A stretch of DNA of 46,580 nucleotides, the filler included, from Jimgerdemannia flammicorona (Eukaryota): the NCBI GenBank assembly GCA_003990765.1. It is 2 parts of 2 records of this genome, joined end to end, with 100 filler letters (N's around TTAATTAATTAA, not from the genome) between each part and the next. Parts side by side here need not be neighbours in the genome. Positions count along the whole stretch, not along the records: positions 23,341 to 46,580 come from RBNJ01001133.1; 1 more part is not named here. One strand, given 5' to 3'. A model generated the notes under the pieces. The model saw nothing but the letters and a program-made list of their open reading frames with translations, was not told the origin of the DNA and searched no databases. A program made the position numbers and the translations under genes. Shown piece by piece: positions 1,000-45,716 of this stretch. Position 1 is the stretch's first letter. Every line of letters begins with the position of its first letter.

Positions 1000-2252
1000 T
1001 GTAACGTACTTGGCTCAATGGAGGCAAATTACAAAGTTGGGGGTTGATGTAGTTTGGCTTGAGCCCCCAGGTACTTTGTTAAAAGCAACAAAATGTTCTT
1101 GGTGTTTAGCAGTATAATAGTCAAGATCTGGATACTGTGTGAGCGGTTTCCTTTTTGGGACAGGTTCTTGGGTGTAGCGGCGATTTGTGTATGTGAACGG
1201 GTTTCCTTCTTGGGTCAACAGGGAATGCCACAATTTTTGTATAGCGAGGCAATCTCCAAAAGTATGTGATTTCTGGCATGACGATCTCTTGTATAGCGCG
1301 ACGATCTTGGTGCGACGATCTCTATGTAGCATGACTGGGTTCCTTATGCATGTCGGTCTGGCAATTTAGCAGTTTTTCCTTCTTGGGTGATGGCGATCTC
1401 TACATGACGATCTCCGTGTAGTGTGACGATTTCAAAAGTATACGATTTCTGGCAGATAACTCGATAACTCAGGCTCACTGGGAACAAACAACACGGATGT
1501 CATGAATTGGGCTCTTACTTGGGTGGCACGGATTCTTCCTGAATCGGTGGCTTCAACTGGGATTAACTCGGATGGCGAGAGTTCTTCCGAATCCGGCTCT
1601 TCTGGGAATACGGCGAATAACTTGTAAACAGCGGACGACGTGGATTCTTCCTGAATCGGCGGACTTCTTGGAAACAGTGGCTTATTCCTTAAGCGGCGGA
1701 TTACTCGAAAGGTGGCGAAGTTCTTCACTCGAACTTAGGCAGCAAATCTTCAGGCTTATCTGGCAAGCGAACCAACAATGGCAGCTATTTCTTAGCGGCG
1801 GACTTTTCTTCAGGCTTATCTGGCAAGCGAACCAAAAACGAACTCATTACTTGTATCAGAAAGTGGACCAGAGTGGGGAAATAAGCTCACAATCTCCTAG
1901 CAGTGGCTATAGAGTTCCTCTTGAAGTGTGGTAGGCAGACTTGTCTTTTGCTTCAATTTCGGACTGAGGTTTATTCACTCTTGTCTCTGGGGTAATTTAT
2001 ACATTGTGGTTGCTATCTGGTTGGGATCTGGCTAACTATAGATTTGCTATTTATGGTGTATTTTGGGTGGACAGCTACTGTCCAGCAGACAGCCACTGTC
2101 TGGGGGACAGCCACTATTCACATTATTCTCTTCTTTGGCTATCTGGTTATTTATACATTTTTTGCAGTAATGGTTGCTGGTTACTATGCTATGCTAATGT
2201 TCACATCACCTGGTCAGGTTTTGAGATTGCTACATTTTTGTGGTTTGTCACA
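1000..2252 (-). repeat. 3' LTR of A1
   Basis: Collinear with 11012-12276; TG...CA ends; purine-rich AGTGGAGGCTGA immediately upstream on minus (PPT-like, ~2253-2264). Confidence 0.95.
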
Positions 2253-2291: not shown

Positions 2292-2795
2292 TCAGTCATC
2301 ATCTCAATAAGCATAAGCTGCTTCTGCATCTATACCTGTTCCATCATCTTCATTGTCTGTATCAGGGTTGCTCTATTCTAGCTCTGGATCTTCTTGTTCT
2401 TTGGAAAACAGGATGTCTACTTGCTGAAGAATACTCTGAAAGGTGGTCTCATTCATCTGATGAATATCGTTAAGGTAGAAGTGAGACTGCACCAGGGCTC
2501 CAACATTTCATTTGTACAAGGTATAGATTCTTTTGACAGTTCTTGCTTCTCGGTGGATTATGCCAGCTAGTCCTCCAATATATGGCTGTTCTTGAAGTAG
2601 TTGTCCAATATTGTAGAAGGCCTATAGATGGTGGATCTGTAACAATCTTTGGGCAATGGCAAGGTTCTCCTGATACTTCTGGATCAATTGTATTGGGGTT
2701 CCTTCAAGTTGGTGGAACTGGGGTAAGGGAACTGGTAGAGCCTGGAAAGAGCTGAGGACCAATTTCTGGAGGTGCTGATCAATCCTTTGGCTCAT
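2292..2795 (-). pseudogene. Accessory ORF3 of family A (167 codons, unknown function, acidic tail)
   Basis: ATG overlaps the integrase TGA (ATGA). Reads MSQRIDQHLQKLVLSSFQALPVPLP...AFYNIGQLLQE...KRIYTLYK...DNEDDGTGIDAEAAYAY*DDD* with internal transition-type stops; in-frame homolog at 43883-44395. Confidence 0.8.
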
Positions 2796-4798: not shown

Positions 4799-6922
4799 TC
4801 CAATTACATCTATTCCCCATCTCTGAAGAATGTTGTCTGGTGGTGCAATTGGTTGCAGTGGTGCTTGATAGTTCTTTCTTCCTTGGTACTTCTGGCAGAT
4901 ATCACATTTCTTGAGTATGTCCTGGACTTGTGTTCTAAGGTTGGGCCAATGCTGGTGTGTTGTTTGCAGCTTCTCTTCTACATTTGCCTGTCCTTGGTGG
5001 GTTTCTGATGTTCTTTTCGGATGAGATCTTCTTGTGCCCTGATGGTCTGGGGAGCTTCTTTTAGGGTGTAGTTTCTTGAGACACCCTTCTTCTGATTCAT
5101 TGGGGCTGGTAGGAAAGGACATCAACATTGTTGTGAGCTTTCCCTGCTTTGTGGATGATGGTGATTTTGTAATCCTGAAGGATAAGGATCCAGTGGGCTA
5201 GGATTCCAGTGGGTTCCTTGCAGTTGAATAACCATTTGAGGGCTGTATAGTCCATGATCAGGATGAACCTTTTTCCAATAAGGTAATGCTTGAACAAGGT
5301 GACCACCCATATGACTGCAAGGCATTCCAGTTTGGTACTACTATAGTTCATCTGCTGCTGATTGGTAGCTCTGCTTACATAAGCTATTACATGGTATTGT
5401 TGATCAGGTCCTTTGTGGGCTAGAACTGCTCTGAGGCCATCTTTAGAAGTATCTGTATACAAGATGAATGACTTCTGTAGATTGAGGTACACAAGAATTG
5501 GTGCTGTAGTCATGCAGTTCTTGAGTTCTTTAAAGGCTTTTTCTTGTGACTCTGTCCATTGGAATGGCACTCCTTTCTTGAGAAGGATTCGGATTGGGGC
5601 AGCAATTTTGGCAAAGTTCTTGATAAACCTTCTGTAGTAGGATACTAGCATCAGGAATGATAATGTTTCCTTTGGGGTCTTGGGTACCGGCCAATTGTTG
5701 ATCTTCTTGGTTTTCTTTAGATCTGCATGGGTTTCTTATTTTGAAACTATGAATCCAAGAAATTCAAGTTTCTGTTTTCCAAAGTAGCATTTCTTTGCAT
5801 TTAGTCTCAAGTGGTTTTTGCAGGTGAGCCTGAAGAATTCCTCCAGATGGTACAGGTGTTCTTTGAAATTTGCTGAATAGATGTTGGAATTGTCCATGTA
5901 TACAATTAGGCAGTAGTGGATCAGGGGAGAATAGACTGAATTCATCATCCTCTGGAAGGTGGGGGGTGCATTACAAAGTCCAAAGGGCATTCAGAGGTAC
6001 TCAAACAGTTTTCCTAGAGCAAGGAAGGCTGTCTTTTGAATGTCCTTGAGGTCCATGGGGATTTCATGGAATCCAGTGAAGAGGTCCATACTGCTGAAGT
6101 ATCTGGCATCTTGTAACTGATCCAAAAGGTCATCAATTCTGGACAAAGGATAGGCATCCTTTTTGGTGACTAAATTGAGTTTCCTGTAATCCACACAGAG
6201 TCTCCATCCTCCTTTCTTTGGTACAATAAGTATAGGGCTGGCCCAGGGGCTAGTAGAGGGTTGGATGACTCCATTGTCTAAAAGTTCCTAGATGTGCTCC
6301 TTTTTGAATGTTTTTAAGTGATGGGATATTCTATAGGGTTTCTGCCAGATGGGTGTTGCATTTCCTGTATTTATGCTGTGGTGATATAATGGATTGTATG
6401 GTAGATTGCCATAATCGGTGGTGAAGATATCCTAATATTAGTTGAGAAGTTCTACTAGTTGTTGCTGTTGTTGAGATGTCAATTCTTCTCCAATATTGAT
6501 GGAAGGCTTCACTGTCTCCTGGGTCGCAGAGGGGCCTTTCCTTTCTTCTGGGACCTTTTGCCATTTCCCAATAGGTTTAGTTCATAAACTTCCCTATGAG
6601 TTCGGTTGAGAAAAGGCACCAGATGTCCTATGACGGTTCCTTTTGGCAAGATGATGGTTTCCCAACTTTGGTTGGTTGCTCGGGAGTGTACTGGATTCAT
6701 CTTGTCAGGAAATGTGTGTCCCTCTATATTCAGGTGTGGGATATCTTCCTTGGGTTCAAAGAAAACGTTTCTGGGGTCAGGTGGTGCAAAGATTTCGAAT
6801 GTGGTTTGTTCTCCAGGTTCCAGGATGAGGTTCTTGTACAGTCTGACTGGTTGGTGGTATACCTGCTGAGGAACATTCTTCTTGAGATGGTTGACTTGAA
6901 GGAGATGTACTTCCTTCTTATT

Positions 6923-11011: not shown

Positions 11012-12276
11012 TGTAACATACCTGGCTCAATGGAGGCAAATTACAAGGTTGGGGGTTGATGTAGTTTGGCTTGAGCCCCCAGTTACTTTGTTAAAAGCAA
11101 CAAAATGTTCTTGGTATTTAGCAGTATAATAGTTAAGATCTGGATACTGTGCGAGCAGTTTCCTTTTTGGGACAGGTTCTTGGGTGTAGCGGCGATTTGT
11201 GTATGTGAACAGGTTTCCTTCTTGGGTCAATAGAGAATGCCACAATTTTTGTGTAGCGAGGCAATCTCCAAAAGTATGCGATTTCTGGCGTGATGATCTC
11301 TTGTATAGCATAATGATCTTGGTGCGACGATCTCTGTGTAGCGCGACTGGGTTCCTTATGCGTGACGGTCTGGCAATTTAGCGGTTTTTCCTTCTTGGGT
11401 GACAGCGATCTCTGCATGACGATCTCCGTGTAGCATGACGATTTCAAAAGTATACAATTTCTGGTGGATAACTCGATAACTCAGGCTCACTGAGAACAAA
11501 CAACTCAGATGTTGCGAATTGGGCTCTTTTGGGAATAATACTTGGGTGGCGTGGATTCTTCCTGAATCGGCAGCTTCAACTGGGAATTAACTCAGATGGC
11601 GAGAGTTCTTCCAAATCGGGCTCTTCTGGGAATACGACGAATAACTTGGAAATGGCGGACGACATGGATTCTTCCTGAATCGGCAGACTTCTTGGAAATG
11701 GCAGCTTATTCCTTAAGCAGCGGATTACTCAAAAGGTGGTGAAGTTCTTCACTCGAACTTAGACAGCAAATCTTCAGGCTTATCTGGCAAGCGAACCAAC
11801 AATGGCAGCTATTTCTTAGTGGCAGACTTTTCTTCAGGCTTATCTGGCAAGCGAACGAAAAACAAACTCATTCTTTGTATCGGAAAGTGGACTGGAGTGG
11901 AGAAATAAGCTCACAATCTCCTAGCAGTGGCTGTAGAGTTCCTCTCGAAGTGTGGTAGGCAGACTTGTCTTTTGCTTCAATTTCAGACTAAGGTTTATTC
12001 ACTCTTGTCTCTAGGGTAATTTATACATTGTGGTTGCTATCTGGTTGCTATCTGGCTAACTATAGATTTGCTATTTATGGTGTGTTTTGGGTGGACAGCT
12101 ACTGTCCGGTGGACAGTCACTGTCTGGGGGACAGCCACTGTTCACATTATTCTCTTCTTTGGCTATCTGGTTATTTATACATTTTTCGCAGTAATGGTTG
12201 CTGGTTACTATGCTATGCTAATGTTCACATCACCTGGTCAGGTTTTGAGATTGCTATGTTTTCATGATTTGTCACA
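11012..12276 (-). repeat. 5' LTR of A1
   Basis: Collinear with 1000-2252; followed on minus by the PBS. Confidence 0.95.
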
Positions 12277-24352: not shown

Positions 24353-24456
24353 AAATTCGAGTTGATCCGGATGGCTTCGGATTTGAGATTCGAATCAAAC
24401 CGTCATGTGATGAATCGAATCCGGATTTGATTCAAATTGACTCATTCGGAGCACTA

Positions 24457-24639: not shown

Positions 24640-24721
24640 TGTAAGTACACAACCTCCAAGCCACTGAAATTATATGTCACTCTCTGAACAAATCTGGAAA
24701 TCACCTGCTTGATCACAAAGC

Positions 24722-24827: not shown

Positions 24828-24896
24828 CCAAGCACTGAGATGTATCGAATCAGAGAATCAAAACAAACAACAACCACAACTTCTAAACATACAAAC

Positions 24897-25994
24897 ATGA
24901 CTACTGAGATCTATACCCATATCCACGCTGACATTTGGAATGCCATTATCAATAGAGCCACACCCCCTCTGCCCCTCATGAATATCTATAGTCTAGCACC
25001 CCTCTACTTCGTGGAAGCCCAATGGAATGCTCTGAACATGCTTAGTGAGGCCTACCGAATTGGACAAATCTCAAGCTACTACTAGATCAGCCACCTCCTG
25101 AAAGACATAATCGAGCACCACCATGATACAGACATTACCCAGATGTCCCAACACCAGAAGCTCATTGCCCGCAAATATCAAGAACTCTTCTATGAGTATA
25201 GTACCATTATTTTCTATCTCCAAGTTACCACCAGTGAAATGGTCGCTACCCTATCCTATGGCCAAATTGATGACATGATACAAGAACTCAACCACAAGTA
25301 TCTCGAGTATGTTAAAACTACAGACAGAATCTTCCCACACCCCAATGATTATATCCTGCAAATGCTCTAAGTTGGATATGCCATGAAGGACATCTATGAT
25401 ATAATCCACTTTGATGAAGATGAAGCAGAAGACAATGATCCCTCTGACACCGACATGATCTCTAGCCAAGGATCTCTGCCAACCCTGATCACACTGCCAA
25501 CCTTGCCAATGAACTTACAACAATTCATAACAGCCTACAAGACTTATTAGGACAATGACCACTAGCACGAATGCCAACCTACATTTACCCCCAATTACTT
25601 CAACTACAATGAAGAGACTGGAGAACACAACCTGTACCTCCAGACAACCCTTGAGATTGAACCAACCACTTTACCACCCAAGTACAAGCGACATAAATTA
25701 TAGCCACCAGCTTACTACAACCCTGTGACTCATAGTACCATAACCTATAGAAGGTATACAGATAGTGAAACCAATAAAAGTGAAGATAATACACCCCTCC
25801 TTTGCTCACTAATACCTTACCCAGCATACGAGACTGATGATGCTATCTTGTGGAATAGAGATAAAGTTCCAATGTATTATTACCTCAGCAAACAAGGAGA
25901 AGTAATCCATGAACCACTTTTCCTGGATGACTACTTTATCAGAGATGATGCAATTGATAGTGATGTCATTGAGGACTACCCAGATAGTGCCTAA
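24897..25994 (+). pseudogene. LTR(U3)-encoded 365-aa protein, B2 copy
   Basis: 1098 bp ATG-to-stop, MTTEIY...DYPDSA*; interrupted only by transition-type stops. Confidence 0.85.
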
Positions 25995-28686: not shown

Positions 28687-29784
28687 TTAGGCACTGTCTG
28701 GGTAGTCTTTGATGACATCACTATCAATGACATCATCTCTGATAAAGTAGTCATCTAGGAAGAGTGGTTCACGGATTGCTTCTCCTTGTTCACTAAGGTA
28801 GTAATACATTGGGACTTCGTCTCCATCCCACAGGATAGCATTGTCTGTCTCATAGACTAGATAAGGTGTTGGTGGACAAAGGATGGGTGTATTGTCTTCA
28901 CTTTCGTCAGATTCACTGTCTGCATACCTTCTATAGGTTACAGCACTATGAGTTGCAGGATTGTAGTAAGCTGGCGGCTGTGGTTCATGTCGCTCATACT
29001 CAGGTGGTAGTGTAGTTGGTTCGATCTCAAGGGTTGTCTGGAGGTACAGGTTGTGTTCTCCAGTCTCTTCATTGTAGTTGAAGTAATTGGGAGTGAATGT
29101 AGGTTGGTATTTGTACCAGTGGTCATTGTCCCAATAAATTTCATATGTGGTTATGAACTGTTGTAGGTTCATTGGCAAGGTTGGTGGAGTAATTAGGGTT
29201 GGCAGAGATCCTTGGCTAGAGGTCATGTCAGCATCAGAGGGATTATTGTCTTCTGCTTCATCTTCATTGAAGTGGATTATATCGTAGATGTCCTTTATGG
29301 CGTATCTGACTTGAGGTATTTGCAGGATATGGTCATCAGGGTGCAGGAAGGTTCTGTCTGTGGTCTGGATGTATTCGAGGTACTTGTGGTTGAGTTCTTA
29401 TATCATATCATCGATTTGGCTATAGGACAGAGTAGCAACCATTTTACTGGTAGTGACTTGGAGACGAGGAATAAAGGTGTTGTACTCATAGAAGAGTTCT
29501 CAATGTTTGCGGGTGATGAGCTTCTGGTGTTGAGACATCTGGGTAATGTCTATATCATAGTGGTGTTCAACCATGTCTTCCAGGAGGCGGCCAATCTGGT
29601 AGTAGCTTGAGATTTGTCTGATTCAGTGGGTCTCGCTAAGCATGTTCAGGGCATTCCATCAGGCTTCTACAAAGTAGAGGGGTGCCAGGCTATGGATATT
29701 CATGAGGGGCAGAGGGGGTGTAGCTCGGTTGACAATGGTATTCCAAATATCAGTGTGGATGCAGTTGTAGATCTCAGTAGTCAT
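28687..29784 (-). pseudogene. LTR(U3)-encoded 365-aa protein, B3 3' LTR copy
   Basis: 1098 bp, same frame throughout; CGA->TGA stop at ~29657. Confidence 0.85.
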
Positions 29785-30519
29785 GTTTGTGTGTTTGGAA
29801 GTTATGGTTGTTGTTTGTTTTGGTTCTCTGATTCGACATGTCTCGGTGCTCAGTATATATGCATTTGGTCCTGATTGGTACATAAGATTCCATTTGTGTA
29901 AATCTTGTGTTCTGTGACTTCGTATTGACTCAGCTTTGTGCACTGTGACTTCGGTTTGACTCAGCTTCGTGATCAAGCAGGTGATTTCCAGATTTGTTCA
30001 GAGGTCGCATGTAATTTCGGTGGCTTGTTCAGAGTGTGACATGTAATTTCGGTGGCTTAGAGGTTGTGCGCTTACAACTCTCCCCTTCTTAGCTTTCGAC
30101 GTCCTCGTTGGGGCCTTCTAATTTGTTCTAGTGTTGTTATACCATTTGGGAGGTCAAAAGTCTGGTAAGGTTCATTTTCTCAGAAAGTGGCATACTTATA
30201 GTACAGTTGCCTAACACGTTGGATTCATATGTTAAAGGGTCGTGTATTCAATACCATATGCCGGAAGTGATTCTGATGTCATTCACTGCTGGAGAATTTT
30301 CTCTAAAGAATCTTCTTAAATATCTATGCCTTGTTTCCCACCAGTGGTACAGGGAGAATAGGCTTACTTTCAGTTTTGCTATTTTTTCAGGGGTTCGGTA
30401 TTCTTGTCTTGTTTTGCTGAGTTCTTGGTTTGGTTCACAATAATTATAATGTTCAGGAGGATAATATATAGTATGTATGAATAGGTGCAGAATATTTGGT
30501 TCTAGTTGTTCAAGGAATC

Positions 30520-30670
30520 ATATTCCTGAACTAGGTCAGTAGCATTCTGGAGATTGGTCTTGAGTTCCCAGATTGCATCGTGGATCAGGTAACTTTTCCA
30601 TTTGACAAGGTACTCCAGATAGTTCTTGTTGCCACATTTGTTGAGGATTTGTTCAACTTCATACTCTTCT
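30520..30670 (-). other. Chromodomain at the integrase C-terminus
   Basis: EYEVEQILNK...EYLVKWKSY...AIWELKTNLQNATDLVQEY. Confidence 0.92.
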
Positions 30671-33600
30671 TGGTTATTAATAATGATAGGTGCAGGTGGT
30701 TTGGTGGTCCGATTTGGAAATAGCTTGTCATCATTGTCATTATATCACTTGAGACGTTGAACATTAAAGACTGGGTGAATCTTAATAGTGTCTGGTAGCG
30801 CTAGTTTGTAGGAGGTTGGAGAGACTTGTGCAATGACTTCAAATGGTCCAATGAACTTGCTGTTCAGCTTAGTAGATGGTCTGTGCTTGAGGTTATCAAC
30901 TCAGTATCCTCTGATATCTAGTAGGACGTTTTCTTCAATATCAAAGGTTTCTTCTCGGCAGTGTTGGTTAACATACTGTGACTGTTGTTCTTGAGCTCGT
31001 GATAAATTCTTAATTGCGATCTGACCTAGATTGTGCATTCGGAGTAGGAATTCTTCAACAGCTTCGACTGTGGAGGGTTTATCGGTAGTTTGGATAAGTG
31101 TCAAAGGGGTGTTCAGGTTTTGTCCAGTATTGGCGAAGAATGGGGTCATTCCAAGAGAGGCTTACTTGCTATTGTTGTAGGCAAACTCAACTGCAGTGAG
31201 GTGTTCATGCCAGTCATCTTATCTGTAAGAAACATAGTTCCTTAGCATTTGTTCCAGAGTTCGGTTCATTCTTTCAGTTTGGCCATCAGTTTCTGAGTGA
31301 AAGGCTGTGGATAGTGCAAGTTTTGTTCCAAGGTATGCATAGAGGGCTTTCCAAAAGTGGCTGGTGAATTTCGGATCTCAGTCACTAATAATGATCTTAG
31401 GAAGACCATGATAGTGGAAGATGTTGTCAAACAAGAGTATGACTATGTCTGGTGCTGTTGCAGTAGTGGTAGTAGGCACAAAGTGGGCTTGTTTGCTGAG
31501 GTAGTCTACAAAGACAACAATTGCATCTTTCCCATTCTTGGTTCGGGGTAGTTGTACAATGAAGTCTATAGAGATTTGTTCCCAATTTGCAGATGGTACT
31601 GGAATAGGGTGGAGTAAGCCGGGTTTTGCTAATGTTGAGGACTTGTTTCATTGGCAGACATCACAGGAAGTAATGTAGGTTTTGAGCTGATCTGCCATGC
31701 GGGGCCAATAGAAGTTTTGGGAGATAACTTCATAGCATTTGTCAAATCCTAAATGTCCAGCTGTAGGGGCATCATGACATTCAAATAGGATAGTCCTTCA
31801 GAGGTCTTGGTTGTTTGGAACATACAATCTGTTCTTATAGTAGATAGCATTGTCCTTGAGTTGGTATTGATTATACCAGGTATGCTTGTCAGCATCATCA
31901 TTGTTCAGGATTTCTCGGAGTGCTTGAGCTTCTTTATCATCAACATATACTGCAATGATTTGTTCTATGATAGTGTTGGTAACCAAGGTCAGAGTTTGGA
32001 TAACCTCTTCGATTGATGGTCTGGAGATTGCATCAGCAACAATATTTTCCTTGCCAGAGCGGTACTGGATTTTACATATAGTCAAAGTTGGTAAGAACTT
32101 TCATCCATCTGGCTTGCTTTCGGGAAAGGATAGCCTGTGTCTTGATGTTGACTAATGACTTGTGGTCAGTCAATACCATGAAGTGTGCTCCTTCTAGGTA
32201 TGGTTGCCATTTGATCAGAGTGTCTATGATGGCTAGCATTTCCTTCTCGTGAGTTGTATAGTTGATTTCGGTATCATTGAACTTGCGGGAGTGATAGGCC
32301 ACAGGGTGTCCTTCTTGCATGAGTACTGCTCCAAGAGCTAGGTCAGAGGCATCAGTAGTGACTTTATATGGTAGGGCAGAGTTTGCTGCTTGAAGTACTG
32401 GAGTGGTTATCAAGGCATCCTTCAGTGCTTGAAAGGCGGTATCTTGTTCATATCCCCAATTTACAAGATTGTTGAAGTCTTTCTCTTATTTCATGGTCCA
32501 AGGTTGTTCTTGTTTCTTGCTGTGCTTGGTCATTTGGGTGAGGGCAGTAGCGATTTTAGCAAAGTTGGCAACGAATTGCCTGTAATAGTTTGCTAATCCT
32601 AGGAATGACTGGAGGTCTTTCAGCTTCTTGGGTCTGGACCAATCCTTGATTGCAGAGATTTTGCTGGGGTCCACTTTGATTCCATTTGGTGTGACAATGT
32701 GTCCAAGGAATTGAATTTCTTTCAGAAGGAATTCACACTTGCTGAGTTTTGCAAAGAGTCGGTTTTCTCGGAGTTTCAGTAGTACTAGTTCAAGGTGTTC
32801 AAGATATTCCTCCAGGGTTTTACTAAAGACTAGGATGTCGTCAATGTAGACAACAATGAATTTGTCTAGGTATGGATGCAGAATGGTATTCATCAGTATC
32901 TGGAAGGTTGCTGGAGCATTAGTTAAGCCAAAAGGCATAACCAGGAACTCGAAGTATCTATAGCGAGTTCAGAAAGCTGTCTTGTAGATTATCTTCTTCT
33001 TTCATGGCAATTTGCCAGTAACCATTTCACAGGTCAAAAGAGCTCATGAATTGTGGGTTGGTAAGTCTATCGAATATTTCATCGATCCTTGGTAGTGGGC
33101 AACAGTTCTTGATGGTCTGTTCATTGAGATTGCAGTAGTCAATGCACATTCATAGGTCTCCTCCTTTCTTGACAACGAAGAGGACTGGTGCACCATAGGG
33201 GGATATGCTGGGTCTGATGAATCCTTGTTCTAAGAGTTCGTTGATTTCCTTCTTGAGTGCATCAATTTCTCTCGGAGACATGTGGTAGGTTGACTTGAAG
33301 GCTGGTTTGGCATCTGGGATAGTCTTGATGGCATGATCTACTGCTCGTTTGGGGGGTAGGCCTTTCAGGAGCTTCCTTGGGAATATGTCTCGGAATTTCT
33401 GGAGTAGTGGTCTGACACGGCTGTCAACTTTGGAAAAATCTTCTTCAGAGTTCTCAGGTTCTCCTTTGGATGGTCGGATGGAGATGGCGAAGAGAGGGCA
33501 TTTCTTGGCCAATTTCTTGAGTTGTAGCTTGTTGATGTAGGTGATCTTTGGTCCAGGGTCACTAGAGTTGAGTAGGTCCTTTTCACCTTGTAGTTTGAAG

Positions 33601-34166
33601 TTGTGGCATCCTTTCTTGATGGTCAGAGAGTGGTTTACCCAATCAATCATGGAGTTCTCTTGTTTCAACCATGGAGTTCCAAGGATGATTTCATTGTCAG
33701 GAAGTGATACGATTTGGAGGGTAACATGTACTCGGTAGTCACTAATTCAGAAGGGTAGATTGCAGACTTCTTTGCTAATAACATGTGAGGTTCCATCAGC
33801 TGTAGCAACTGCTTGAGTTTGTTGTACTGGAGAGGTGAAGACCTTGAGTCTGTTGGTTGTTTCTTCATTGATGAAGTTGCCTGAAGTGCCACTGTCTATC
33901 ATAATCTTGACAGGTGCTCCGTTGACAAAAGCTTTAAGGGTGAGCAGTTTGTCCGATCCAATTGTGGTGATTTCAGTTGTAGGAGCCTTTCTTCTGTTGG
34001 TTCTTCTTTGAGCCAGTTCATTGATACAAGAGAAGCAATCATCAATCATTCGGGAAGAGTACATTCCAATACCATAAGGGCATCGGCCACTTAGTACATA
34101 TCCATCTTCTATCTTCTTGTAGAATTGTTCTTCTTTGCTCATAGTAGGTTGGGCTGGGGCCTTGTT

Positions 34167-34574
34167 TGATGAGCCAAATCCTTTGGATCCTCGGATGGTG
34201 GGCAGTAGTTCAGGGACTTCCTTGACTATCAGGGTTGACTCGATTTTTTCGAATAGGATCTGCGCGATGCAGAAACCAATAGGGATTTTGAAGGGTGTCC
34301 AACTGTGGTTTCGGATGAGGACAATGATTTTGCCTGTATAATCTTCATCAATGACTTCTCCTTCTACTGAGAGTCCTTTCAGTGCTAGGCTGCTGTGACA
34401 GCATATTCTTCCAACATGTCCTTCAGGGATTTGAATACTGATTCCTGTATAGACTTGTTTGACTTCTTGGTTAGAAACTGTAGCTTCTTCAGCTGCATAC
34501 AGGTCATATCCAGCTGCTTTTTGACTTCCTTTGGTTGGGGCCTTAGTAGTTTGTCTTAGCTTGACAAAGTCTAG
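34167..34574 (-). pseudogene. Trimeric dUTPase domain in the B3 polyprotein
   Basis: KGSQKAAGYDLY, HSSLA, EVIDEDYTG, IAQ, RGSKGFGSS. Confidence 0.95.
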
Positions 34575-37279
34575 TGTTCTGGTGGTCAGGTTGTTGAGGT
34601 GGTGCAGAGTTGTAACAGTTGCTCATATTGCTGTTCAGGGTTTTTGGTTGGGGCAGGCACTGGCTATGTGTCCTGTCTTTCGGCAATAGAAGCATGCTCT
34701 GCTTCTTTGAAGTTTGTTCCTTTCACCTTTAGTAAGTTTCTTGAAGGTACTTGGCTGGGTGGGTTCAGGATTTCTGGGTGTCCAAGAGGTGAATGTGGAG
34801 GGAGCTCGGGATGCTTCATGCTTGGGTTCTTCTTTCTTGGTCCAAGTCTTTTCCTTATTGTTGAATTGCCTTCGGGGCAGAATTGGTCCAGCTGTTAGGA
34901 TTCGCTTGACCATAGTCTTGATTCTTACCAGGCACCATTGTTGGTGATCACAACCAACTGGGCAGCCTTGTTCTCTGATTTTTCTAGTAAGCCATTCAGG
35001 CAGTGCATCGAATAAATGGTCTGCTCTTGTACCATTTCGTGCTTCATCATTGGCGATATATCCTAGGCCAACAGTGTTCAGGAGTGACTCGAGTTTTGTA
35101 CAGAAAGTTTCAAATTCTTCCTTGCCATGTATATCAAATTTGAGGTTGCAGAGTTTTACTCGAGATTCGGCAATCATGGTTTCACTGCGGTATTGAGCAA
35201 TCATGAGTTGTTTGAGTCCAGGGGCTGCAGGATGGGCTCCATATCCTGGGGCATTGTTTGCTGTATTCTGAGCAACTACTGCAGGTCAGGTATCCCATAT
35301 GAGGGGTTTTTCAGGAAGGGTTCACCACCATTCTTTGGCAGGTCCTCGGAAGAATGTAACAACTCGGCAGACATAGGCTGTAGTTGTAGCAAAGAGTTGT
35401 TCCAGGGTATGGTCTTGATTGTTTGTCAGAATGTGGTCAGCAACTCGCTCATTGGTCCATTGATTGGCTTCAAAGTTGGTGTCAACTATACTAATGAAGC
35501 TTTGGACTTCTTGTGCAGTACCATTGAAGGTAGGTAGGCTCAGATTTTTGGTAGGTCAGGTCTGTTCAGCTAAGGCAGTAATGGTTGCTGCCATTATAGC
35601 TACTTGGGCTGTGAGGTCCAGAATCTGTTGGTTCGCCATGTTGATTGCTGGAGGCGGTTGGACTGCTGGTAGTGGTGTTACTGGTACTACTTGAGGTACT
35701 GGTGCAGAGTGTGATGGGGTTCTTTGGGTCTGTTTAAGTTGCTGGAGTAGTAGTTGTAGATCTGGAGTGAGGGCTTGATAGATAGCTGTTTGTTGCTGTG
35801 TAGGTGTATTCTGTCCTGATGGATGTGTGTCTCCTTCAGTGGTGTATCCGGGATCGAATTCAGTGAGATACTCCTCCTCTTCTTCAGTTTGGTCCCCATG
35901 TAATTGGGTTTGCTCGGCGTCAAAATAGACAGAATCAGTTGTATATCTGATTTCAGATGGACTTAATTCAAGGTCAAGTTCAGGTTCGGTATTGGTTTCA
36001 GATTCAGGTAGGGCTGTAGCAGGGCCTGCTTCAGGTTCTGGGTCAGGTAGTTGATGAAGGGTTTCTCTTGCTTCTTCCTTAAGAATATGGCGGGCCTTAC
36101 TGTTCTGGAATCGGTAGTATAATGCGGTCTTGGTCCTGGTGCGGTGAAAGTCGGTAGAGTTGAGCCACTTGGCTACAGAAGCTTGGGCTTTGTGAGGAAC
36201 TAAGGCTAGAAAGACTGCTACTGGTTGTCCTAGGTCACTTGGATTTGTAGAGCTGACAAAACTCTTGTTGAGAAGAGTAAAGAAGGCTTCAATAAGACCT
36301 TCTTCATCTTGACTTGCTGAGTGTAGTGCAAGGAGTTCGGTGAATAGGGTTTCACCTATTTGCTGGTTTAACCGGAGTACTTCTTTCTTAGAATGAAGTT
36401 TGTCCCACTTGTTGCAGGTGTGGAGGTCAAATTGTCCTTGTATGTCAGGTTCAATTCTCTCCAGATTGTCAGATGGTTCAGGATAAATTCCAGTTCAGAG
36501 GTTGGGCTTTATACTAACTTGTAGGAATTTGCAGAAGGGTTTGTAGTGGGGTGAGGAAGCGTCTTGAAGCGGAATTGGATTGTAAATCACTGCTACCAAG
36601 TTGTAAGAGGGTTACTTTTTAGAGTGACCATTATGTAGTTCTGGAAGAGTTTTCTGGAAGTTCTGGATATTCTGGAAGACTGTTTTCTTATGGTCAGGAT
36701 CAATTTCATATGAAGTATGTCCTCTACACTTATTGATTTCAAGATTGGGTTGACGTCTCAACCAAAGTCCTTTTTTGGACTAGTTCTGGATGTTTAGGAT
36801 TTTCCATATTTCAGGAAGTTCAAGAAACTAAGACCAGCTTAGTTGAATTGGCGTATCGCTGCAGACAATACCCAATTAGGAAATTTCGTGACAGGGTTAG
36901 GAGTAAGACCTAACAGGGAGCGGATTTACTTAAGAGTGGTTTGTGGGTTATGGAATAGGTTTATTTGCTATTCATGATATTGCTATACTAGGAGTAGTTG
37001 TATGAAGGGATATTGTGGGGAAGTGCTCAGGAGTTGTGTTCAAATTGTTCAAGTCTGAGATTCTGAGGTCTGGGGGAGGGGGTATTTATACTAGTGAGGG
37101 GCTATCTAGACTAGGCTAGATATGGATGTAGCACTAAGTGCTTTGCTGAGTCAGAATGCAGTCACGTAGTATAAGTGTGATCTGACATGTCAAGAGATCG
37201 TCTGACTGCTGAGTCAGTTCACAGTCACATCATACAAGGCTAATCTAACTATACTATGACTACTAGGCTATTTATAGGT

Positions 37280-38381
37280 TTAGGCACTGTCTGGGTAGTC
37301 CTTGATGACATCACTATCGATTGCATCATCTCTGATGAAGTAGTCATCTAGGAATAATGGTTCGTGGATTACTTCTCCTTGTTGGCTGAGGTAGTAATAT
37401 ATTGGGACTTCATCTCCGTCCCACAGGATAGCATCGTCTGTTTCATATGCTGGATAAGGTGTTGGTGGGTGAAGAATGGGTGTACTGTCTTCGCTTTCAT
37501 CGGATTCACTGTCTGCATACCTTCTATAGGTTACAGCACTATAAGTTGCAGGGTTATAGTATGCTGGCGGCTGTGGTTCATGTCGCTCGTACTCAGGTGG
37601 TGGAGTGGTTGGTTCGATCTCGAGAGTTGTCTGAAGGTACAGGTTGTGTTCTCCAGTCTCTTCATTATAATTAAAGTAATCGGGGGTGAACGCAGGTTGG
37701 TATTCGTGCCAGTGGTCATTGTCCCAATAAGTCTCGTATACAGTTATGAACTGTTGTAAGTTCATCGGCAAGGTTGGCAGAGTGATCAGGGTTGGCAGAG
37801 ATCCTTGGCTAGAGGTCATGTCGGCGTCAGAGGGATCATTGTCTTCTGCTTTATCTTCGTCGAAGTGGATTATATCATAGACATCCTTCATGGCATATCT
37901 GACTTGAGGCATTTGTAGGATGGGGTCATCAGGGTGCGGGAAGGTTCTGTCTGTCTGTGGTTTCGACATACTTGAGGTACTTGTGGTTGAGTTCTTGTAT
38001 CATGTCATCGATTTGGCTGTAGGACAGGGTAGCAACCATTTTGCTGGTAGTAACTCGGAGACAGGAAATAAAGGTGTTGTACTTGTAGAAGAGTTCTCGA
38101 TGTTTGTGGGCGATGAGCTTCTGGTGTTGAGATATCTGAGTAATGTCTGTATCATGGTGGTGTTCGACCATGTCTTCCAGGAGGCGGCTGATCTGGTAGT
38201 AGCTTGAGATTTGTCCGATTCGGTGGGCCTTGCTAAGCATGTTCAGGGCATTCCATCGGGCTTCCATGAAGTAGAGGGGTGCCAGGCTATGGATATTCAT
38301 GAGGGGCAGAGGGGGTGTGGCTCGGTTGACAATGGTATTCCAAATGTCAGCATGGATGCGGTTGTAGATCTCAGTGGTCAT
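37280..38381 (-). pseudogene. LTR(U3)-encoded 365-aa protein, B3 5' LTR copy (intact except for one 4-bp duplication)
   Basis: ORFs 37929..38381 and 37280..37969 join after removing an extra CTGT at ~37947-37958; 1102-4=1098 bp. Confidence 0.9.
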
Positions 38382-38669
38382 GTTTGTGTGTTTGGAAGTT
38401 GTGGTTGTTGTTTGTTTTGGTTCTCTGATTTGACATGTCTCGGTGCTCAGTATATATGCATTTGGTCCTGATTGGTAAGGTTCCGTTTGTGTAGATCTTG
38501 TGTTCCGTGACTTCGTATTGACTCAGCTTTGTGCACTGTAACTTCGGTTTGACTCAGCTTCGTGATCAAGCAGGTGATTTCCAGATTTGTTCGGAGGTCG
38601 CGTGTGATTTCGGTGGCTTATTCAGAGGGTGACGTGTAATTTCGGTGGCTTGGAGGTTGTGCACTTACA

Positions 38670-41600
38670 CCTTCCTGAACCCCCTCACCTTTTGTCCCTA
38701 AGACAAATGAGTTGCTACTAGAAGATGAAGAAATGGAATAAGAAGAACAGAAACCTGCTGCCCCAAAGCCCAAGAAGAAGTACACTCCAAAGATCATGCC
38801 TAGAGATATCTACAATGAAGCCTGACAGAAGATTCAAGAGACCAAGATGGAGGTCCCTCTTCTGTAGTTCCTGTAACTAATACCAGCTGGAGTCTGAAAC
38901 AAATTATTGAGAACCATCAGATCTAGCACTGGCCAAGTCCCTATCCCACAGCAAGAACCAGCTTCCATTCTTGTTCAGGCCACAGAAAGACATATTAGTA
39001 CCTATTTACATAGAGATATTAGAGAACAAAAAGCAAAAATCCTCATAGATACAGGAGTAGCTATCTGTGTTATTGCCAAATGATTCCTGGACACCCTCTA
39101 ATAGCCCATTGATGAACCATCTAACCTCAGCATCATAGTAGCAGATAGAGCCCAAATTCAACTTCTTAGAGAAGTATAAAATATCACTATCTCTCTTGGA
39201 CACATTCAGTTCTCCATCTCCAAAGCTATTGTTACAGAAGCTGTCATCTATGATATAATTCTTGGCACTAACTGGATGAAGGAAATGAATGCAGTTGTTG
39301 ATATTGGTCAACAAGTACTCAAGTTTGACTACCAAGACAAGAAGTACAGAGTTAAGGTGACCAGCTATAAGCAATCAAAGAAGAAGAAGAAGGTCACTAT
39401 TCAGGAGAAATATATTAGCAGTGAAGAATCTACCACAGAAGAAGAGGAAAAATCTGAAGATGGAAATGATCCCAGACTCAACCCCTGAATTAATCTGGTA
39501 GATAACAGACCAGAAGTCAATGTGTGGGCCAAGAATACCATCCCTATCACCATTGGAGCCATTGCAGGAGAAATCAAAGGATGCCCTACCTGCCTCAAGA
39601 GACACAAGTATCCTGAGCATTCCTCCAAGATCATGGGAACAAGGAAATTGCCTGATACAGTCTGCCTAGAGTGCAGAAAAAAGAAGAAGAAATGTAGATA
39701 TATTTCAGAAATATCTACAACTGAAGCTGCAGAAGTACAAGTAATCTGAAGTCAAGAATCATCCAAGGAAGAAGAAACTTCTGACCAAGAAGTTCCTGAA
39801 CAAGAAGCACCTGAAGAAGAAGAGATCTCTAAACTCATTCCCTGGGATGATCCTCACTGGACACTACCTGAAGACAATGACCCTTGGAATACAGAAGAAA
39901 GACCCAGCACAATCACCATTATCCTCAAGAAAGAAACTCACCAAGAAAAGGCTTTTTAACTAGGAAAATGTCTATACCAAATGATCTTCCACTCTTCTCA
40001 AGACTACTGCTATCAGTGCCATTTATTAGACCAATAGGAGAGACAGAGACCCCAGAGACCAGAACCCCTGAACACAGTTGCACAGTCAACTATCTTCTAA
40101 GAAGTTACCACTAAGCTGTAAAGCTGATTCAGTAGACAAGGCCTCTTCACCCAGACAGAAGTATATCTCTTGTTTACTCTTCTATCTACTTATGACCAAG
40201 ATGGATACTGATTCCTAAAATAACAAGAGATCAATAACCAGGAATATCATTTCCAAGCAATGGGATATTGTAACCATAGAAGACACCCAGACTGCCAAGA
40301 CTGCAGGCATCAGAAGATCCATCTCAGTCATGATGTTGCAGTTCACACTTTGAAGAGAGGAGATAATCAAAGCCAGATCCAAAAAAGTAGACCAAAAAGC
40401 CAGGAAGAAGGACCCTCAAGATCTATAATTTAGGAGAAGACATCAGACATACAACCTACCAAGGATGGGCAGAAGATGCCACCAACTTTATAGAAGCCCT
40501 AGACTCTACAGGAAGAAGAGAAATCAACTATCTCTGAGATCCCTCTACTGGAGCCAGATGGCCACACCTCAACCTCAGAGCTTGGAGACTCTCTGCTAGT
40601 GGAGCTTCAGCCTTAGAAAAGCTCAAACTTAGCAAGGATATTACCCAGTATGCCCTGCTGCATCTCAAGGCCAAACCCCTGACCAAAGCCCACCCAGTAT
40701 GATCTTTATAGTCTGGAGGATGAATCTATCAAACCTGGAAAAACCTTTATGATCAGAACCAGATTAGCCATGCAGCCACCCCAAGGAGCTTACATCCAAC
40801 TGACCTCAAGGTCTGGACTTGCCAGATAAGGAATAACTGTGGAAGGAGGAACTATTAACCCAGGATATATAGGCGAAATCAAGGTCATTCTACACAACAG
40901 TAGTACATAATGGCACTGAATCATTAGAGGACAGAAGATTGCCCAAGCAGTCTTCATGAAGGTCAAGACCTCACAATTACAAGAAGTCTCTGAATTGACT
41001 GAAGGGACAAGACAAGCCAAAGAATTTGGAAGTTTAGACAAGAAGAAAGTATACCTCCTTCAAGTTAACCACCTCAAGAGGAATATTCTCCAGCAAGTGT
41101 ACTAGCAATCAGTCAGATTGCACAAGAATCTTATCCTAAAGTCTGGAGAAAAAACTACCTTCGAAATCTTTGCACCACCTGATCCCAGAAATCTTTTTTT
41201 TGAACCTAAAGAAGATATCCCCCACCTGGACATAGAGGGATACACATTCCCTGATAAGATGAACCCAGTATACTCCTGAGCAACCAACCAAAGTTGAGAA
41301 ACCATCATCTTGCCAAAAGGAACTATCATAGGACACCTAGTACCTTATCTCAACCAAACTTATAGGGATGTTTATAAACTAAACCTATCAGGAAATGGCA
41401 AAAGGTCCCAGAAGAAAGGAAAGGCCCCTCTGCGACCCAGGAGACAGTGAAGCCTTCTACCAATATTAGAGAAGAATTGACACCCCAACAATAGCAACAA
41501 CTAGTAGAACTTCTCAACAAATATCAAGATATCTTCACTATCAATTATGACAACCTGCCATACAACCCATCATATCACTATAGCATAAATATAGAAAATA

Positions 41601-44600
41601 TAACACCCATCTGGCAGAAATCCTATAGAATATCCCATCACTTAAAAACATTCGAAAAAGAACACATTTAAGAACTCTTAGACAATGGAGTCATTTGACT
41701 CTCCATCAGCTCCTGGGCCAGCCCTATACTTATTGTACCAAAGAAAAGAGGATGGAGACTCTGTGTAGATTATAGGAAACTCAATTCAGTTACTGAAAAG
41801 GACACCTATTCTTTGCCCAGAATTGACAACCTCTTGGATCAGTTATAAGATACCAGATACTTCAGCAGTATGGACCTTTTCACAGAATTCCATGAGATCC
41901 CAAAGACATTTAAAAGACAGCCTTCCTTGCTCTAGGAAAACTGTTTGAATATCTCTGAATGTCCTTTGGACTCTGCAATATACCCCCCCACCTTTTAGAG
42001 GATGATGAATTCAGTCTATGCTCTCTTGATCCACCACTATCTTATTGTATATATAGATGATTCCAACATCTACTCAGCAAATTTTGAAGAATACCTGCAA
42101 AAACCACTTGAGACTGAATGTAAAGAAATACTACTTTGGAAAACAGAAACTTGAATTTCTTGGATTCATAGTTTCAAAAGAAGGAACCCATATAGATCCA
42201 AAGAAAACTGAGAAGATCAACAATTGGCCAGTATCCAAGACCCCAAAGAAAATATTATTATTTCTGATGCTAGTATCCTACTACAGAAGATTTATCAAGA
42301 ATTTTGTCCAAATTGCTGCCCCAATCTAAATCCTTCTCAAGAAAGAAGTGTTATTCAAATAGACAGAATCACAAGAAAAAGCCTTCAAAGAACTCAAGAA
42401 CTACATGACTATAGCACCAATCCTCATGTACCCCAATCTATAGAAGTCATTCATCTTATATATAGATGCTTCTAAAGATGGCCTCAGAGCAGTTTTAGCC
42501 CAAGAAGGATCTGATCAACAATACCATGTGATAGCTTATGCAAGCAGAGCTATCAATCAGCAGCAGATGAACTATGGTAGCACTAAACTGGAATACCTTG
42601 CAGTCATATGGGCAGTCACCCTGTTCAAGCATTATCTTATCAGAAAAAGATTCACTCTGATTATAGACCATATAACCCTTAAATAGCTATTCAACTGTAA
42701 GGAACTCACTGGAATCCTAGCCTGCTGGATCCTTATCCTTCAGGATTACAAGATCACTATCATCCACAAAGTAGGGAAAGCTCACAACAATGTTGATGTA
42801 CTTTCCCACCAGCTCCAATAAACCAGAAGAAGGGTGTCCCAAGGAACTACACTCTAAAGGAAGCTCCTCAGACCATCAAGGTACAAGAAAATCTCATCTG
42901 AAAAGAATATCAGAAAGCTCACCAAGGACAGATAAATATAGAAGAGAAGTTGTAAATAATACACCAATACTGGCCTAACTTCAGAATACAAGTTCAGGAT
43001 ATACTCAAGAAATGTAACATCTACCAAAAGTACCAAGGAAGGAAGAACTATCAAGCACTATTGTAACCAATCACACTACTAGACAACATCTTTCAGAGAT
43101 GGAGAGTAGATGTAATTGGACTGCTACCAGTTACACCAAGAAGAAACAAATATATTCTTATATTTGTAGAATATCTAACCAAGTGGCCCAAGGCTTTCCC
43201 AATGGAAATTACAGATGCCTTAACCATTGTAGGCCTTCTCCATGGACTCATACTTAGATATGGACCTCCAGAAGAACTCATCTCTGACTGAGGCACAGAA
43301 TTCATCAATAACATAATTACAAGTTATATCTAAATTCATAAGATCCACCTCAAATGGACTACATCATACCACTCTCAGATTAATGACATAACAGAGAGAA
43401 TGAACCAGACCATTAAGAAAGGACTTGTCTGAGTCAATCCTATCAATTGAGACATCTGCTTACTTGAAATCCTATGGGAAATTTGGAATACCCCTGTTAC
43501 CTCCACTAAATAAAAGCCATTCAAAATGATGTTTGTTAAGAAAATCAGAACTACTGACCATAAGAATCTCAGAGATCTTCTCAAGAAGGCAGAACAGTTA
43601 TGTAATCAAGCCTGAGATCAGATTGTCAAAGCCCAAGAAAGATAAAAAAAAGTATTATAACCAGAAATAGAAGGATCAGAAGATCAAAATTGGAGATCAA
43701 GTACTAGTTTGGAGAAGCATAATTGAAACTAATTTTGCCACCAAATTGGAGCCCAAATGGGAAGAATCTTATCTTATATACAATATTAGAGGAACTAGCA
43801 TCTATTTAAGAAGTATAGATGGATGAACCCTGAGAACACCAGTATATATCAATTGCCTCAAACTATATCTTCCCTCTATACTATGAGCCAAAGGATTGAT
43901 CAGTACCTCCAGACATTAGTCCTCAGCTCCTTCTAGGCCCTACTAGTTCCTCTACCCCAATTCAGCAAAGCTAATGGAAACCCCCTTCAGAAGATCCAAG
44001 TTCACTAAGAAAATCTCACCCTGGCCAGGTATCTACTACAAGTCCACTAACTGTAGGCCTATTATACAATTGGTGAACAATTGTAGAACCTTCCAGCCCC
44101 AGAGCAGACCTATATCAGGAACACCACAGGTCTGACCAGAAGAGATACTACTGCTGCAGACAGACTATACACTATTTACAAATGAAATGTCACAGCTCTG
44201 ATACAGATGCAGTTCTCTCTGAATGATATTCAAGAAATGAATTCTATTACCTATTTGAGCATCATCAATTCCATTGAAATTCTATTCTCTAAAGAAGAAG
44301 AGCCCATAGAATAGAGTGACCCTAGTACAGACAATGAAGATGATGGAACAGGTATAGATACAAAAGTAGCTTATACTTATTGGGATGATAACTAAAGAAC
44401 AGTCTGAGGCAGACTATCCTTCAGTAGGGGCTGATGTAACAAATCAAACATATCACCTAAATCATAACTTAGCCAGATGATGTGAATAATTAGCATACTT
44501 AACCAGATGACATAGGCTCCCAGTATGACAACTAGTATATCATAGTTACTTATGCCACCATACTTATAATTAGCCAGACATATCAGATAGAATCTGTTTA

Positions 44601-45716
44601 CCTATATAGACTCTGTATACCTACTATAAGTAGCAAATCTATAGTTAGCTATATAGCAACTAGATAGCAACCAACTTGTATAAATTACCCTAAAGATAAG
44701 AGTGAATAAATCTCAGTCCAAATTGAAGTACAAACCAAAGAAGTCTCTAAAGATTGAGCATTGGTCTCCTTATTCCCACTCTGGTCTACTTTCTGATACA
44801 AAGCTTGAAGATTTTGCTGCCAAGTTTGAGTGAAGAACTTTGCCATCTTTGGAATTATTGGTATACTTGCCAGACTAAGCCTGAAGAACCCAAGTTTGCT
44901 GCCAAGTTCAAGGAAGAACTTCACCACTATTTCTAAGTTATTTGCTGCATTCTCAGAGAGCCTACCCTTCTTGCCATAAGCCAGTCTCTTGATGCAACTT
45001 TGCAATAATCTGTTCATACAAACAAAGCCAGTCTAGATATAACTTGCTAAGAATCTGAGTTATTTTGCAATTGAAGCTACCAATTTAGGAAGAATCTATA
45101 TCACCCAAGTAGTATTCCCAGAGAGCCACCAATTCAGGAAGAATCTGTATTATCCATCATTTTCAAGTTATCCATATTTCTAGAAGAGCCTGATTCACAC
45201 CATCTGAGTAATCTATTATTTCCAGTAAGCTCAAGTTATCAAGTTATCTATCACCAGCATTATTCCCAGTTAGAAAAACCTGTGCCAAATTGAGTTATCT
45301 GTCAGATTACCAGATTGCACTGTATAAGGAATCTACTTGTACTATACAGGATCATCACACAGAGATCATCACATTACATGGAGATCGTCATATAGAAATT
45401 ATATAAGAAGAACTGCCAAATTGCCAGACTATCATATATAAGGAAGATCATCACACTATATACAAAATTCTACCAATTTCCAGTTGACCCAAGAAGGAAA
45501 TCTATTTATACACAAATCACCACTACACCCAGAGAACTGTCCCAATAAGGAAATTACTTGCAAATATCTAGTTTTGACTATTATATCACTAAACACCAAG
45601 GACCTCAGAAATCTTAGAACATTTTGTTACTTTTTAACAAAGTAACTGAGAGCTCAAGCCAAACTACACCAACTCCCAACCTTGTAATTTGCCTCTATTG
45701 AGCCAGGTATGTTACA
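38670..45716 (+). mobile_element. Gypsy family A copy 2 (5'-truncated, more degenerate)
   Basis: Collinear with A1 from ~9315 onward: PR ILIDTG (~39030), dUTPase ~40646-41036, RT, RH, uninterrupted IN; PPT-like AGTAGGGGCTGA; 3' LTR 44435-45716. Confidence 0.95.
43883..44395 (+). pseudogene. Accessory ORF3 of A2 (170 codons)
   Basis: MSQRIDQYLQTLVLSSF*ALLVPLP...AYYTIGEQL...DRLYTIYK...SLNDIQEMN...YTYWDDN*; same ATGA overlap with the integrase stop. Confidence 0.8.

What the first reader, a model, noticed from the sequence alone, without database searches (positions are those of the whole stretch)
43883..44395. ORF3 diverges much faster than pol between A1 and A2 yet keeps its frame
Seen: A1 and A2 pol differ mostly by C->T/G->A changes. 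The ORF3 core instead differs by many transversions, conservative replacements (QKYQENLAIAQRLLQIH vs QVH*ENLTLARYLLQVH; YLNDIHQMN vs SLNDIQEMN) and in-frame indels only (504 vs 513 bp), while both termini stay near-identical. Both copies start at an ATGA overlapping the integrase stop. The ORF occupies the env slot but has no signal peptide or TM segment. Inference: a real protein under selection, present as swappable or rapidly evolving alleles as expected in a host-element arms race, and possibly expressed by termination-reinitiation.
Basis: partly seen in the sequence, partly recalled or inferred. Interest (0 to 1): 0.75.

Follow-up and report, generated by a model that had tools for sequence, protein, structure and literature searches.

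The report
Retrotransposon protein paired with promoter palindromes
A fungal jumping-gene family carries a small extra gene in several old versions, each almost always travelling with its own set of palindromic repeats just upstream of the element's promoter, which suggests the element makes a protein that switches on only its own kind.

Summary
The sequence contrast is real (transversions A1 vs A2: 64/329 in the ORF3 core, 9/773 in integrase), but both window copies are dead (7 and 4 internal stops). ORF3 is not evolving fast: synonymous sites between the two cores are saturated and dN/dS is about 0.06-0.23, so these are old alleles recombined onto a shared pol of a fungal Ty3/gypsy family. 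The genome holds seven ORF3 types. Each is followed in U3, just upstream of a conserved TATA box, by its own tandem array of 18-19-bp palindromic units. Core and array agreed in 179 of 180 callable copies, although the segments between them are shuffled among types; two further types each had a new array. The core folds confidently (pLDDT 86) into a helical domain with a helix-turn-helix-like part and has an acidic, aromatic tail. Best reading (0.55): a self-encoded, sequence-specific activator or anti-silencer with its cognate operator, working like foamy-virus Tas or VANC. Binding is not shown. The ATGA overlap is absent in two types. The scan noted the gene-array co-divergence before on other DNA of this genome (e1-7556962).

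The parts
43883..44395 (+). A2 ORF3, type T2a, dead copy with 7 internal stops
43949..44293 (+). type-specific helical core (codons 23-137)
44096..44179 (+). helix-turn-helix-like pair (residues 72-81 and 86-99); residues 71-90 vary most between types
   Evidence: HTH reading is inference
44294..44395 (+). acidic tail with conserved Trp/Tyr (14-16 D/E, no K/R in 34 residues); shared by T1a and T2a
43883..43886 (+). ATGA overlap of integrase stop and ORF3 start in A2
42818..42821 (+). RNase H / integrase junction of A2 (reads ATAA; ATGA in most copies)
44423..44434 (+). A2 polypurine tract
44435..45716 (+). A2 3' LTR
44603..44619 (+). single decayed T2a palindrome unit in A2 U3
44677..44718 (+). 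conserved TATA box, AATAAA and TCAGTC downstream of the array
2292..2795 (-). A1 ORF3, type T1a, dead copy with 4 internal stops
2069..2119 (-). T1a palindrome array, 3 units, period 18, in the A1 3' LTR
12093..12143 (-). same T1a array in the A1 5' LTR
1000..2252 (-). A1 3' LTR
11012..12276 (-). A1 5' LTR (92% identical to the 3' LTR)
5097..5100 (-). ATGA overlap at the RNase H / integrase junction of A1

Best explanation
ORF3 and the U3 palindrome array form a specificity cassette of a fungal Ty3/gypsy family. SHOWN: at least seven old ORF3 types sit on a nearly common pol; each is under purifying selection and travels with its own tandem array of palindromic units placed about 50-200 nt upstream of the conserved TATA box; the DNA between gene and array has been exchanged among types without breaking the pairing. 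INFERRED: the protein is made as a separate product (probably by stop-restart from the genomic RNA), binds its own type of array through the helix-turn-helix-like core, probably as a dimer, and with its acidic aromatic tail recruits transcription or chromatin factors, giving a positive feedback loop that activates or protects from silencing only elements of the same type. Mismatched recombinants would fail to amplify, and new specificities would escape parasitism by dead or non-autonomous copies.
For: Core and array type agreed in 148 of 148 parsed copies, with unsupervised clustering ARI 1.00, against 0.64 (tail), 0.48 (U3 start), 0.59 (U3 middle), 0.26 (post-array); of 43 unparsed copies 31 agreed, 1 disagreed, 11 could not be called. 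In the 69 parsed copies chosen only by the shared PPT, 69 agreed, against a shuffled mean of 29.8 and a maximum of 46 in 10,000. Chosen by array instead: 9 of 9 T1a-array and 12 of 12 T2d-array loci with a core upstream had the matching core (9 of these 21 new). Intervening exchange: T1a and T2a share the tail (transversions 0.004 vs 0.18 in the core), T2a sits on two U3-middle haplotypes, one shared with T2c and one with T1/T2d, L077 has a T1a core, T2-type U3 start and T1a array. New core T2e came with a new array in 3 of 3 copies with LTR sequence; a new array led to a distinct T1-like core in 5 of 5 loci with ORF3 upstream. Arms change symmetrically between sister types while spacers vary within an array. 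Core model pLDDT 86, pTM 0.77; residues 71-90 vary most between types and residues 71-105 are the most basic part.
Against: No binding, expression or activity data. Fold search gave nothing at Z >= 5; the 10 rows of 50 that are HTH-type DNA-binding proteins (label recalled) score only Z 3.1-4.0. Gene and array are only about 270 nt apart. The non-palindromic 28 nt before the array is almost as type-specific (145 of 148), and type-level distances of the U3 start (Spearman 0.85) and of that segment (0.81) follow the core at least as well as the array does (0.72, 9 of 120 permutations). Low ARI for short segments partly reflects low information. The junction between T1a units contains the T2c motif (9 of 23 T1a copies), so sites overlap between distant types. 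One discordant copy (L055, T1a core with T1b array). The T1c cores are badly decayed and were typed by eye. Copies are related, so the 179 are not independent events; the independent evidence is seven types and about four exchange events.
Confidence: 0.55

Rival explanations
1. Modular subfamily evolution with host factors (Tnt1-like): the arrays are sites for host transcription factors or small-RNA escape variants, and ORF3 alleles merely travel with them as linked or co-adapted haplotypes, ORF3 doing something else.
For: Short distance between gene and array; neighbouring non-palindromic U3 segments also follow core type; U3 modularity on a shared RNase H is published for Tnt1 (PMC1838419, abstract) and fast-evolving palindromic LTR regions for Sireviruses (PMC4728375, abstract).
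Against: Segments between gene and array were exchanged several times while pairing held; seven related motifs differing by symmetric single-base steps would need several host factors of like geometry (inference); a protein that did not touch the array has no reason to change type with it.
Confidence: 0.25
2. ORF3 binds the array as RNA: the units form hairpins at the 3' end of the genomic RNA (U3) and ORF3 is a Rev/Rex/CERV-like export or packaging factor with type-specific recognition.
For: The same co-segregation; U3 of the 3' LTR is transcribed; an LTR-retrotransposon export protein is known (CERV, PMC10309623, search listing only).
Against: Inner arm positions are often mismatched and spacers vary while arms are kept, more like DNA half-sites than stem-loops (inference); fixed position upstream of the TATA box; no arginine-rich stretch, and the tail is acidic and aromatic.
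Confidence: 0.12
3. One reading: ORF3 evolves rapidly under positive selection against a host defence protein.
For: Many old alleles coexist, also in other samples; the bootstrap interval of the transversion ratio reaches 1 for 4 of 10 type pairs; the host mutates repeats heavily (A1 LTR pair: 80 transitions, 9 transversions).
Against: Synonymous saturation and dN/dS 0.06-0.23; constraint like integrase for the window pair (0.25 vs 0.22); does not explain the matched arrays.
Confidence: 0.06

Closest known systems
VANC proteins of VANDAL DNA transposons (PMC5735166, passages read); TnpA of Spm (10.64898/2026.08.24.746577, passages read)
   Same: Element-encoded accessory protein whose type co-evolves with short motifs amplified as tandem repeats in the element's own non-coding DNA; several specificities in one methylating host.
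   Different: Those are plant DNA transposons with binding and demethylation shown; here an LTR retrotransposon of a fungus, no sequence match to VANC, palindromic units in U3, binding not shown.
Foamy-virus Tas/Bel1 (PMC517496, passages read)
   Same: Small non-env protein; sequence-specific DNA binding to the element's own promoters with a C-terminal acidic activation domain is the model proposed here.
   Different: Retrovirus with env and an internal promoter site; here no env, no copy of the motif inside A1 or A2 outside the LTRs, no homology found, several coexisting specificity types.
Additional ORFs between pol and the 3' LTR of LTR retrotransposons (PMC7264820, parts 1-2 of 3 read; Retand TRP28, PMC11963269, passages read)
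   Same: Conserved extra ORF in the env slot; a regulatory role has been proposed for TRP28, and Retand has family-specific tandem repeats.
   Different: Sense, soluble, 170 aa, no Pfam match; allele-by-allele pairing with a U3 array is not described in the passages read.
Tnt1 superfamily modular U3 evolution (PMC1838419, abstract read)
   Same: Distinct U3 types on a homogenised pol module.
   Different: No element-encoded protein paired with the U3 type in the abstract.
AUGA stop-restart of victoriviruses (PMC6631646, passages read)
   Same: AUGA overlap between cistrons in a fungal host, here at two junctions.
   Different: No structure in the 60 nt upstream; two ORF3 types have a 17-nt overlap instead.

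Membership tests
Ty3/gypsy LTR retrotransposon | LTR pair with TG..CA ends, PPT, RT then RNase H then integrase | tested here: met
   RNase H and dUTPase by Pfam, integrase by its motifs in the translation
Additional ORF (sense, pol to 3' LTR) | conserved ORF in most copies, under purifying selection | tested here: met
env / env-like | signal peptide and transmembrane segment | tested here: not met
   highest 19-residue hydropathy 0.91-1.36 in 5 copies; no signal-peptide predictor was run
VANC | sequence homology to VANC domains | tested here: not met
   no significant Pfam family; profile search found only 5 close relatives
VANC-like systems (works like) | protein type co-varies with tandem motifs in the element's own non-coding DNA | tested here: met
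VANC-like systems (works like) | direct binding and loss of silencing at cognate copies | not testable with these tools
   needs EMSA, ChIP, methylome
Tas/Bel1-like transactivator (works like) | C-terminal acidic activation domain | tested here: inconclusive
   composition fits; activity untested
Tas/Bel1-like transactivator (works like) | response element in an internal promoter | tested here: not met
   motif found only in the LTRs of A1 and A2
Helix-turn-helix DNA-binding domain | tri-helical HTH fold | tested here: inconclusive
   helices 72-81 and 86-99 joined by a Gly turn; weak matches, e.g. phage Mu activator C, Z 4.0, rmsd 2.5, 50 aligned
Termination-reinitiation (victorivirus type) | AUGA overlap | tested here: met
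   79 of 103 parsed junctions, 13 more unparsed; absent in T2c and T2d
Termination-reinitiation (victorivirus type) | upstream pseudoknot | tested here: inconclusive
   60 nt upstream fold no better than shuffles in 6 of 6 copies, but the program does not model pseudoknots

The most novel reading that the evidence does not exclude
An env-less LTR retrotransposon encodes its own sequence-specific transcription factor of a new family, and protein plus operator array behave as an exchangeable specificity cassette, like a phage immunity region, so that one recombining family is split into at least seven mutually insulated regulatory types within a single fungal genome.
Probability: 0.5. Interest if true: 0.88.

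Novelty: new variant of a known kind. Interest (0 to 1): 0.72.

Why it matters
Extra ORFs of LTR retrotransposons have stayed without a function for decades (PMC7264820). This family offers a direct test: several natural protein-site pairs with predicted 13-17-bp targets, so cognate versus non-cognate binding is one experiment. If it holds, self-encoded sequence-specific activation, so far shown for complex retroviruses and plant DNA transposons in the papers read, extends to env-less LTR retrotransposons and to fungi, explains why U3 types diversify on a common pol, and yields a small set of orthogonal activator-operator pairs.

Tried and rejected
Homology: Pfam, ESM Atlas, PDB sequences, phage records gave nothing significant; the profile search of 1.84 billion representatives gave 5 close relatives only. 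Longer or fused forms were not searched. The full-length model was poor (pLDDT 49) and its fold search gave no Z >= 5; the core model gave none either, which excludes no family. Homodimer prediction returned no verdict (0.29 against a mark of 0.32, alignment not used). No RNA holder was listed for L093, so no reads were laid. The ORF in the repeats of element B matched the ORF3 profile at probability 4.8% only: inconclusive. A first motif classifier tied T2a with T2d because decay turns one motif into the other; replaced by alignment distances. The first multiple alignment was inflated by insertions; replaced by anchored and codon alignments. A TURBS-like UGGGA lies 121-125 nt upstream and encodes a conserved integrase Trp, so it was not counted (usual distance recalled). 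Literature searches listed no paper on an LTR-retrotransposon protein paired with its own LTR motif; the library lacks most subscription journals and no supplements were read.

Full report
Setting. A1 (12276 to 1000, minus strand, LTRs 92% identical) and A2 (to 45716, plus strand) are copies of one Ty3/gypsy-type family with dUTPase, RT, RNase H and integrase. The host is a fungus: 44 matches to the fungal transcription-factor domain PF04082. Repeats decay by C-to-T change: the A1 LTR pair differs by 80 transitions (35 CpG, 35 CpA, 7 CpC, 3 CpT) and 9 transversions in 1251 columns. Transversions were therefore used as the clock.

Observation. Between A2 and A1, transversions are 9/773 in integrase, 1/66 in ORF3 codons 1-22, 64/329 in the core, 3/102 in the tail, 1/41 up to the LTR and 41/268 in U3. 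Both frames are broken, with 7 and 4 internal stops. With the 30 best genomic matches to each window copy, class-diagnostic columns number 0 in 42360-43599, 4 transitions in 43600-43899 and 61 in 43950-44299.

ORF3 is real and old, not fast. 104 of 119 distinct loci give a full in-frame ORF3; stop-free copies were 12 of 52 (T2a, the A2 type), 5 of 7 (T2c), 2 of 10 (T2d), 0 of 27 (T1a, the A1 type) and 0 of 7 (T1b). Net dN/dS in the core is 0.06-0.23 for 8 of 10 type pairs; for T2a-T1a and T2a-T1b dS is saturated (A2 vs A1: 55.7 differences on 69.8 synonymous sites, 74.3 on 242.2 non-synonymous). With transversions only, T2a vs T1a differ at 0.352 of four-fold sites in the core and 0.071 in integrase, and the ratio of position 2 to four-fold sites is 0.25 (interval 0.04-0.71) against 0.22 in integrase; the interval reaches 1 for 4 of 10 pairs. 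The core tree on 32 copies separates the types with support 93-100 (T1a only as part of T1), the integrase tree on 34 mixes them. Two metagenome contigs, L140 and L141, differ at 19 of 858 integrase bases yet carry a T1-like and a T2-like core. Both main types occur as intact proteins in other samples. So the pattern is recombination of old alleles onto a shared pol.

The U3 array. Each type is followed 130-230 nt into the LTR by a tandem array of inverted half-sites, period 18 (19 in T2c), with lengths changing by whole units: T2a TGTACAG-nnn-CTGTACA, T2d TGTGCnG-gac-CTGCACA, T1a GGACAG-tgg-CTGTCC, T1b TGACAG-tgg-CTGTCA, T2c TGTCC-tgn-GGACA. Sister types differ by symmetric changes in both arms. 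A TATA box follows about 46 nt after the array in 131 of 141 copies with enough sequence, with AATAAA at +26 and TCAGTC at about +34; placing the start site there is inference. In the window, A1 has three T1a units in each LTR and A2 one decayed T2a unit; the motifs occur nowhere else in either element.

Pairing test. The set was 114 core-selected copies plus 84 of 90 copies chosen only by the shared PPT (6 had no core upstream; the 90 were taken from the first 100 listed of 258 matches), 191 after removing duplicates. In 148 parsed copies the array predicted core type in 148 and clustered with ARI 1.00; tail 130 (0.64), U3 start 122 (0.48), U3 middle 93 (0.59), 28 nt before the array 145 (0.96), post-array 110 (0.26). 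Of 43 unparsed, 31 agreed, 1 did not (L055, T1a core with T1b array; both share the inner 13 bp) and 11 had no callable array. For the 69 parsed PPT-selected copies, shuffling gave 29.8 on average and at most 46. Starting from the array, 30 T1a-array and 30 T2d-array loci gave 9 and 12 with a core upstream, all matching, 9 of them new. One uncalled copy, L162, proved a sixth type (T2e) with its own array, TGTTCC-aagy-GGAACA, in 3 of 3 copies with LTR sequence; an unfamiliar array in L192 led to 16 loci, 5 with ORF3 upstream, all a distinct but badly decayed T1-like core typed by eye. Linkage alone is weakened by exchange in between: T1a and T2a share the tail (0.004 vs 0.18), T2a has two U3-middle haplotypes, one near T2c (0.058 vs 0.19) and one near T1/T2d. 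Against this: the distance is only about 270 nt, copies are not independent, type-level distances of the U3 start and pre-array segment follow the core as well as the array does (Spearman 0.85, 0.81, 0.72), and the T1a inter-unit junction contains the T2c motif in 9 of 23 copies.

The protein. No family or solved relative was found. The core (residues 24-136 of a stop-free natural copy, 22-row alignment) folds at pLDDT 86 into six helices. Helices 72-81 and 86-99 are joined by a Gly turn; residues 71-90 vary most between types and 71-105 is the most basic part. No structure reaches Z 5; ten of the top 50 rows are phage or bacterial DNA-binding regulators that I recall as HTH proteins, most aligned over this part, at Z 3.1-4.0: a lead only. 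The last 34 residues hold 14-16 acidic and no basic residues with conserved Trp and Tyr, the make-up of an acidic activation domain (recalled knowledge).

Translation. The integrase stop overlaps the ORF3 start (ATGA, or ATAA after decay) in 79 of 103 parsed junctions (13 more unparsed), but lies 14 nt downstream in all 6 T2c and 8 T2d copies parsed. The RNase H/integrase junction reads ATGA in 51 and ATAA in 10 of 74 copies (lead from scan notes). Stop-restart is plausible as an element-wide strategy, without the upstream structure of victoriviruses being evident.

Comparison. It would work like VANC/VANDAL (PMC5735166, passages), Spm TnpA (10.64898/2026.08.24.746577, passages) and foamy-virus Tas (PMC517496, passages), but is a member of none. 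Among LTR retrotransposons, extra ORFs are common and of unknown function (PMC7264820, parts 1-2 of 3); a regulatory role is proposed for Retand TRP28 (PMC11963269, passages); a 2026 atlas names accessory proteins but the passages read show no LTR-element protein binding its own LTR (PMC13547354). Tnt1 (PMC1838419, abstract) and Sireviruses (PMC4728375, abstract) give the host-factor rival. Searches listed no report of such pairing; supplements were not read. An earlier scan note (e1-7556962, seen, after my own tests) found the same co-divergence in two copies elsewhere in this genome; it is not independent support.

Verdict. Observation largely right, arms-race reading wrong in detail, and the stronger signal lies 200 nt downstream. 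Cognate DNA-binding activator or anti-silencer 0.55, linked host-factor modules 0.25, RNA partner 0.12, positive selection 0.06. Interest 0.72; new variant of a known kind.

Noticed in passing
window 5097-5100 (-) and 42818-42821 (+): Integrase is a separate cistron joined to RNase H by an ATGA overlap (51 ATGA and 10 ATAA of 74 copies).
   Followed up: partly
window 3569-4797: A poly(A)-ended insertion with a target duplication of about 17 nt interrupts the A1 integrase.
   Followed up: no
window 24456-38675: A second gypsy family (B) with long repeats that carry long ORFs (35556-36494, 37280-37999, 37929-38522) without Pfam match; similarity to ORF3 was inconclusive.
   Followed up: partly
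window 11001-11011 (-): A1 primer-binding site starts TGGGGGCTC, like a tRNA-Pro site (recalled); 4-nt target duplication ATAG flanks A1.
   Followed up: no
L141:1216-1569: This metagenome ORF3 looks mosaic: front part close to L140, rear part T2-like.
   Followed up: partly
L163, L216: Copies with internal deletions that remove the ORF3 core but keep a full T2a-type array: candidate non-autonomous riders.
   Followed up: no
window 7824-8621 (-) and 39400-40100 (+): A long acidic, Cys-containing insert lies between protease and dUTPase in family A; only a weak Zn-cluster match, E 0.039.
   Followed up: no
U3 middle segment, e.g. L093: A CRE-like TGACGT motif (label recalled) recurs in the U3 middle across types and may be a shared host-factor site.
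   Followed up: no
window 24020-24352 and 22358-23233: Tandem arrays of period 14 and 33/24/12 next to the scaffold gap.
   Followed up: no
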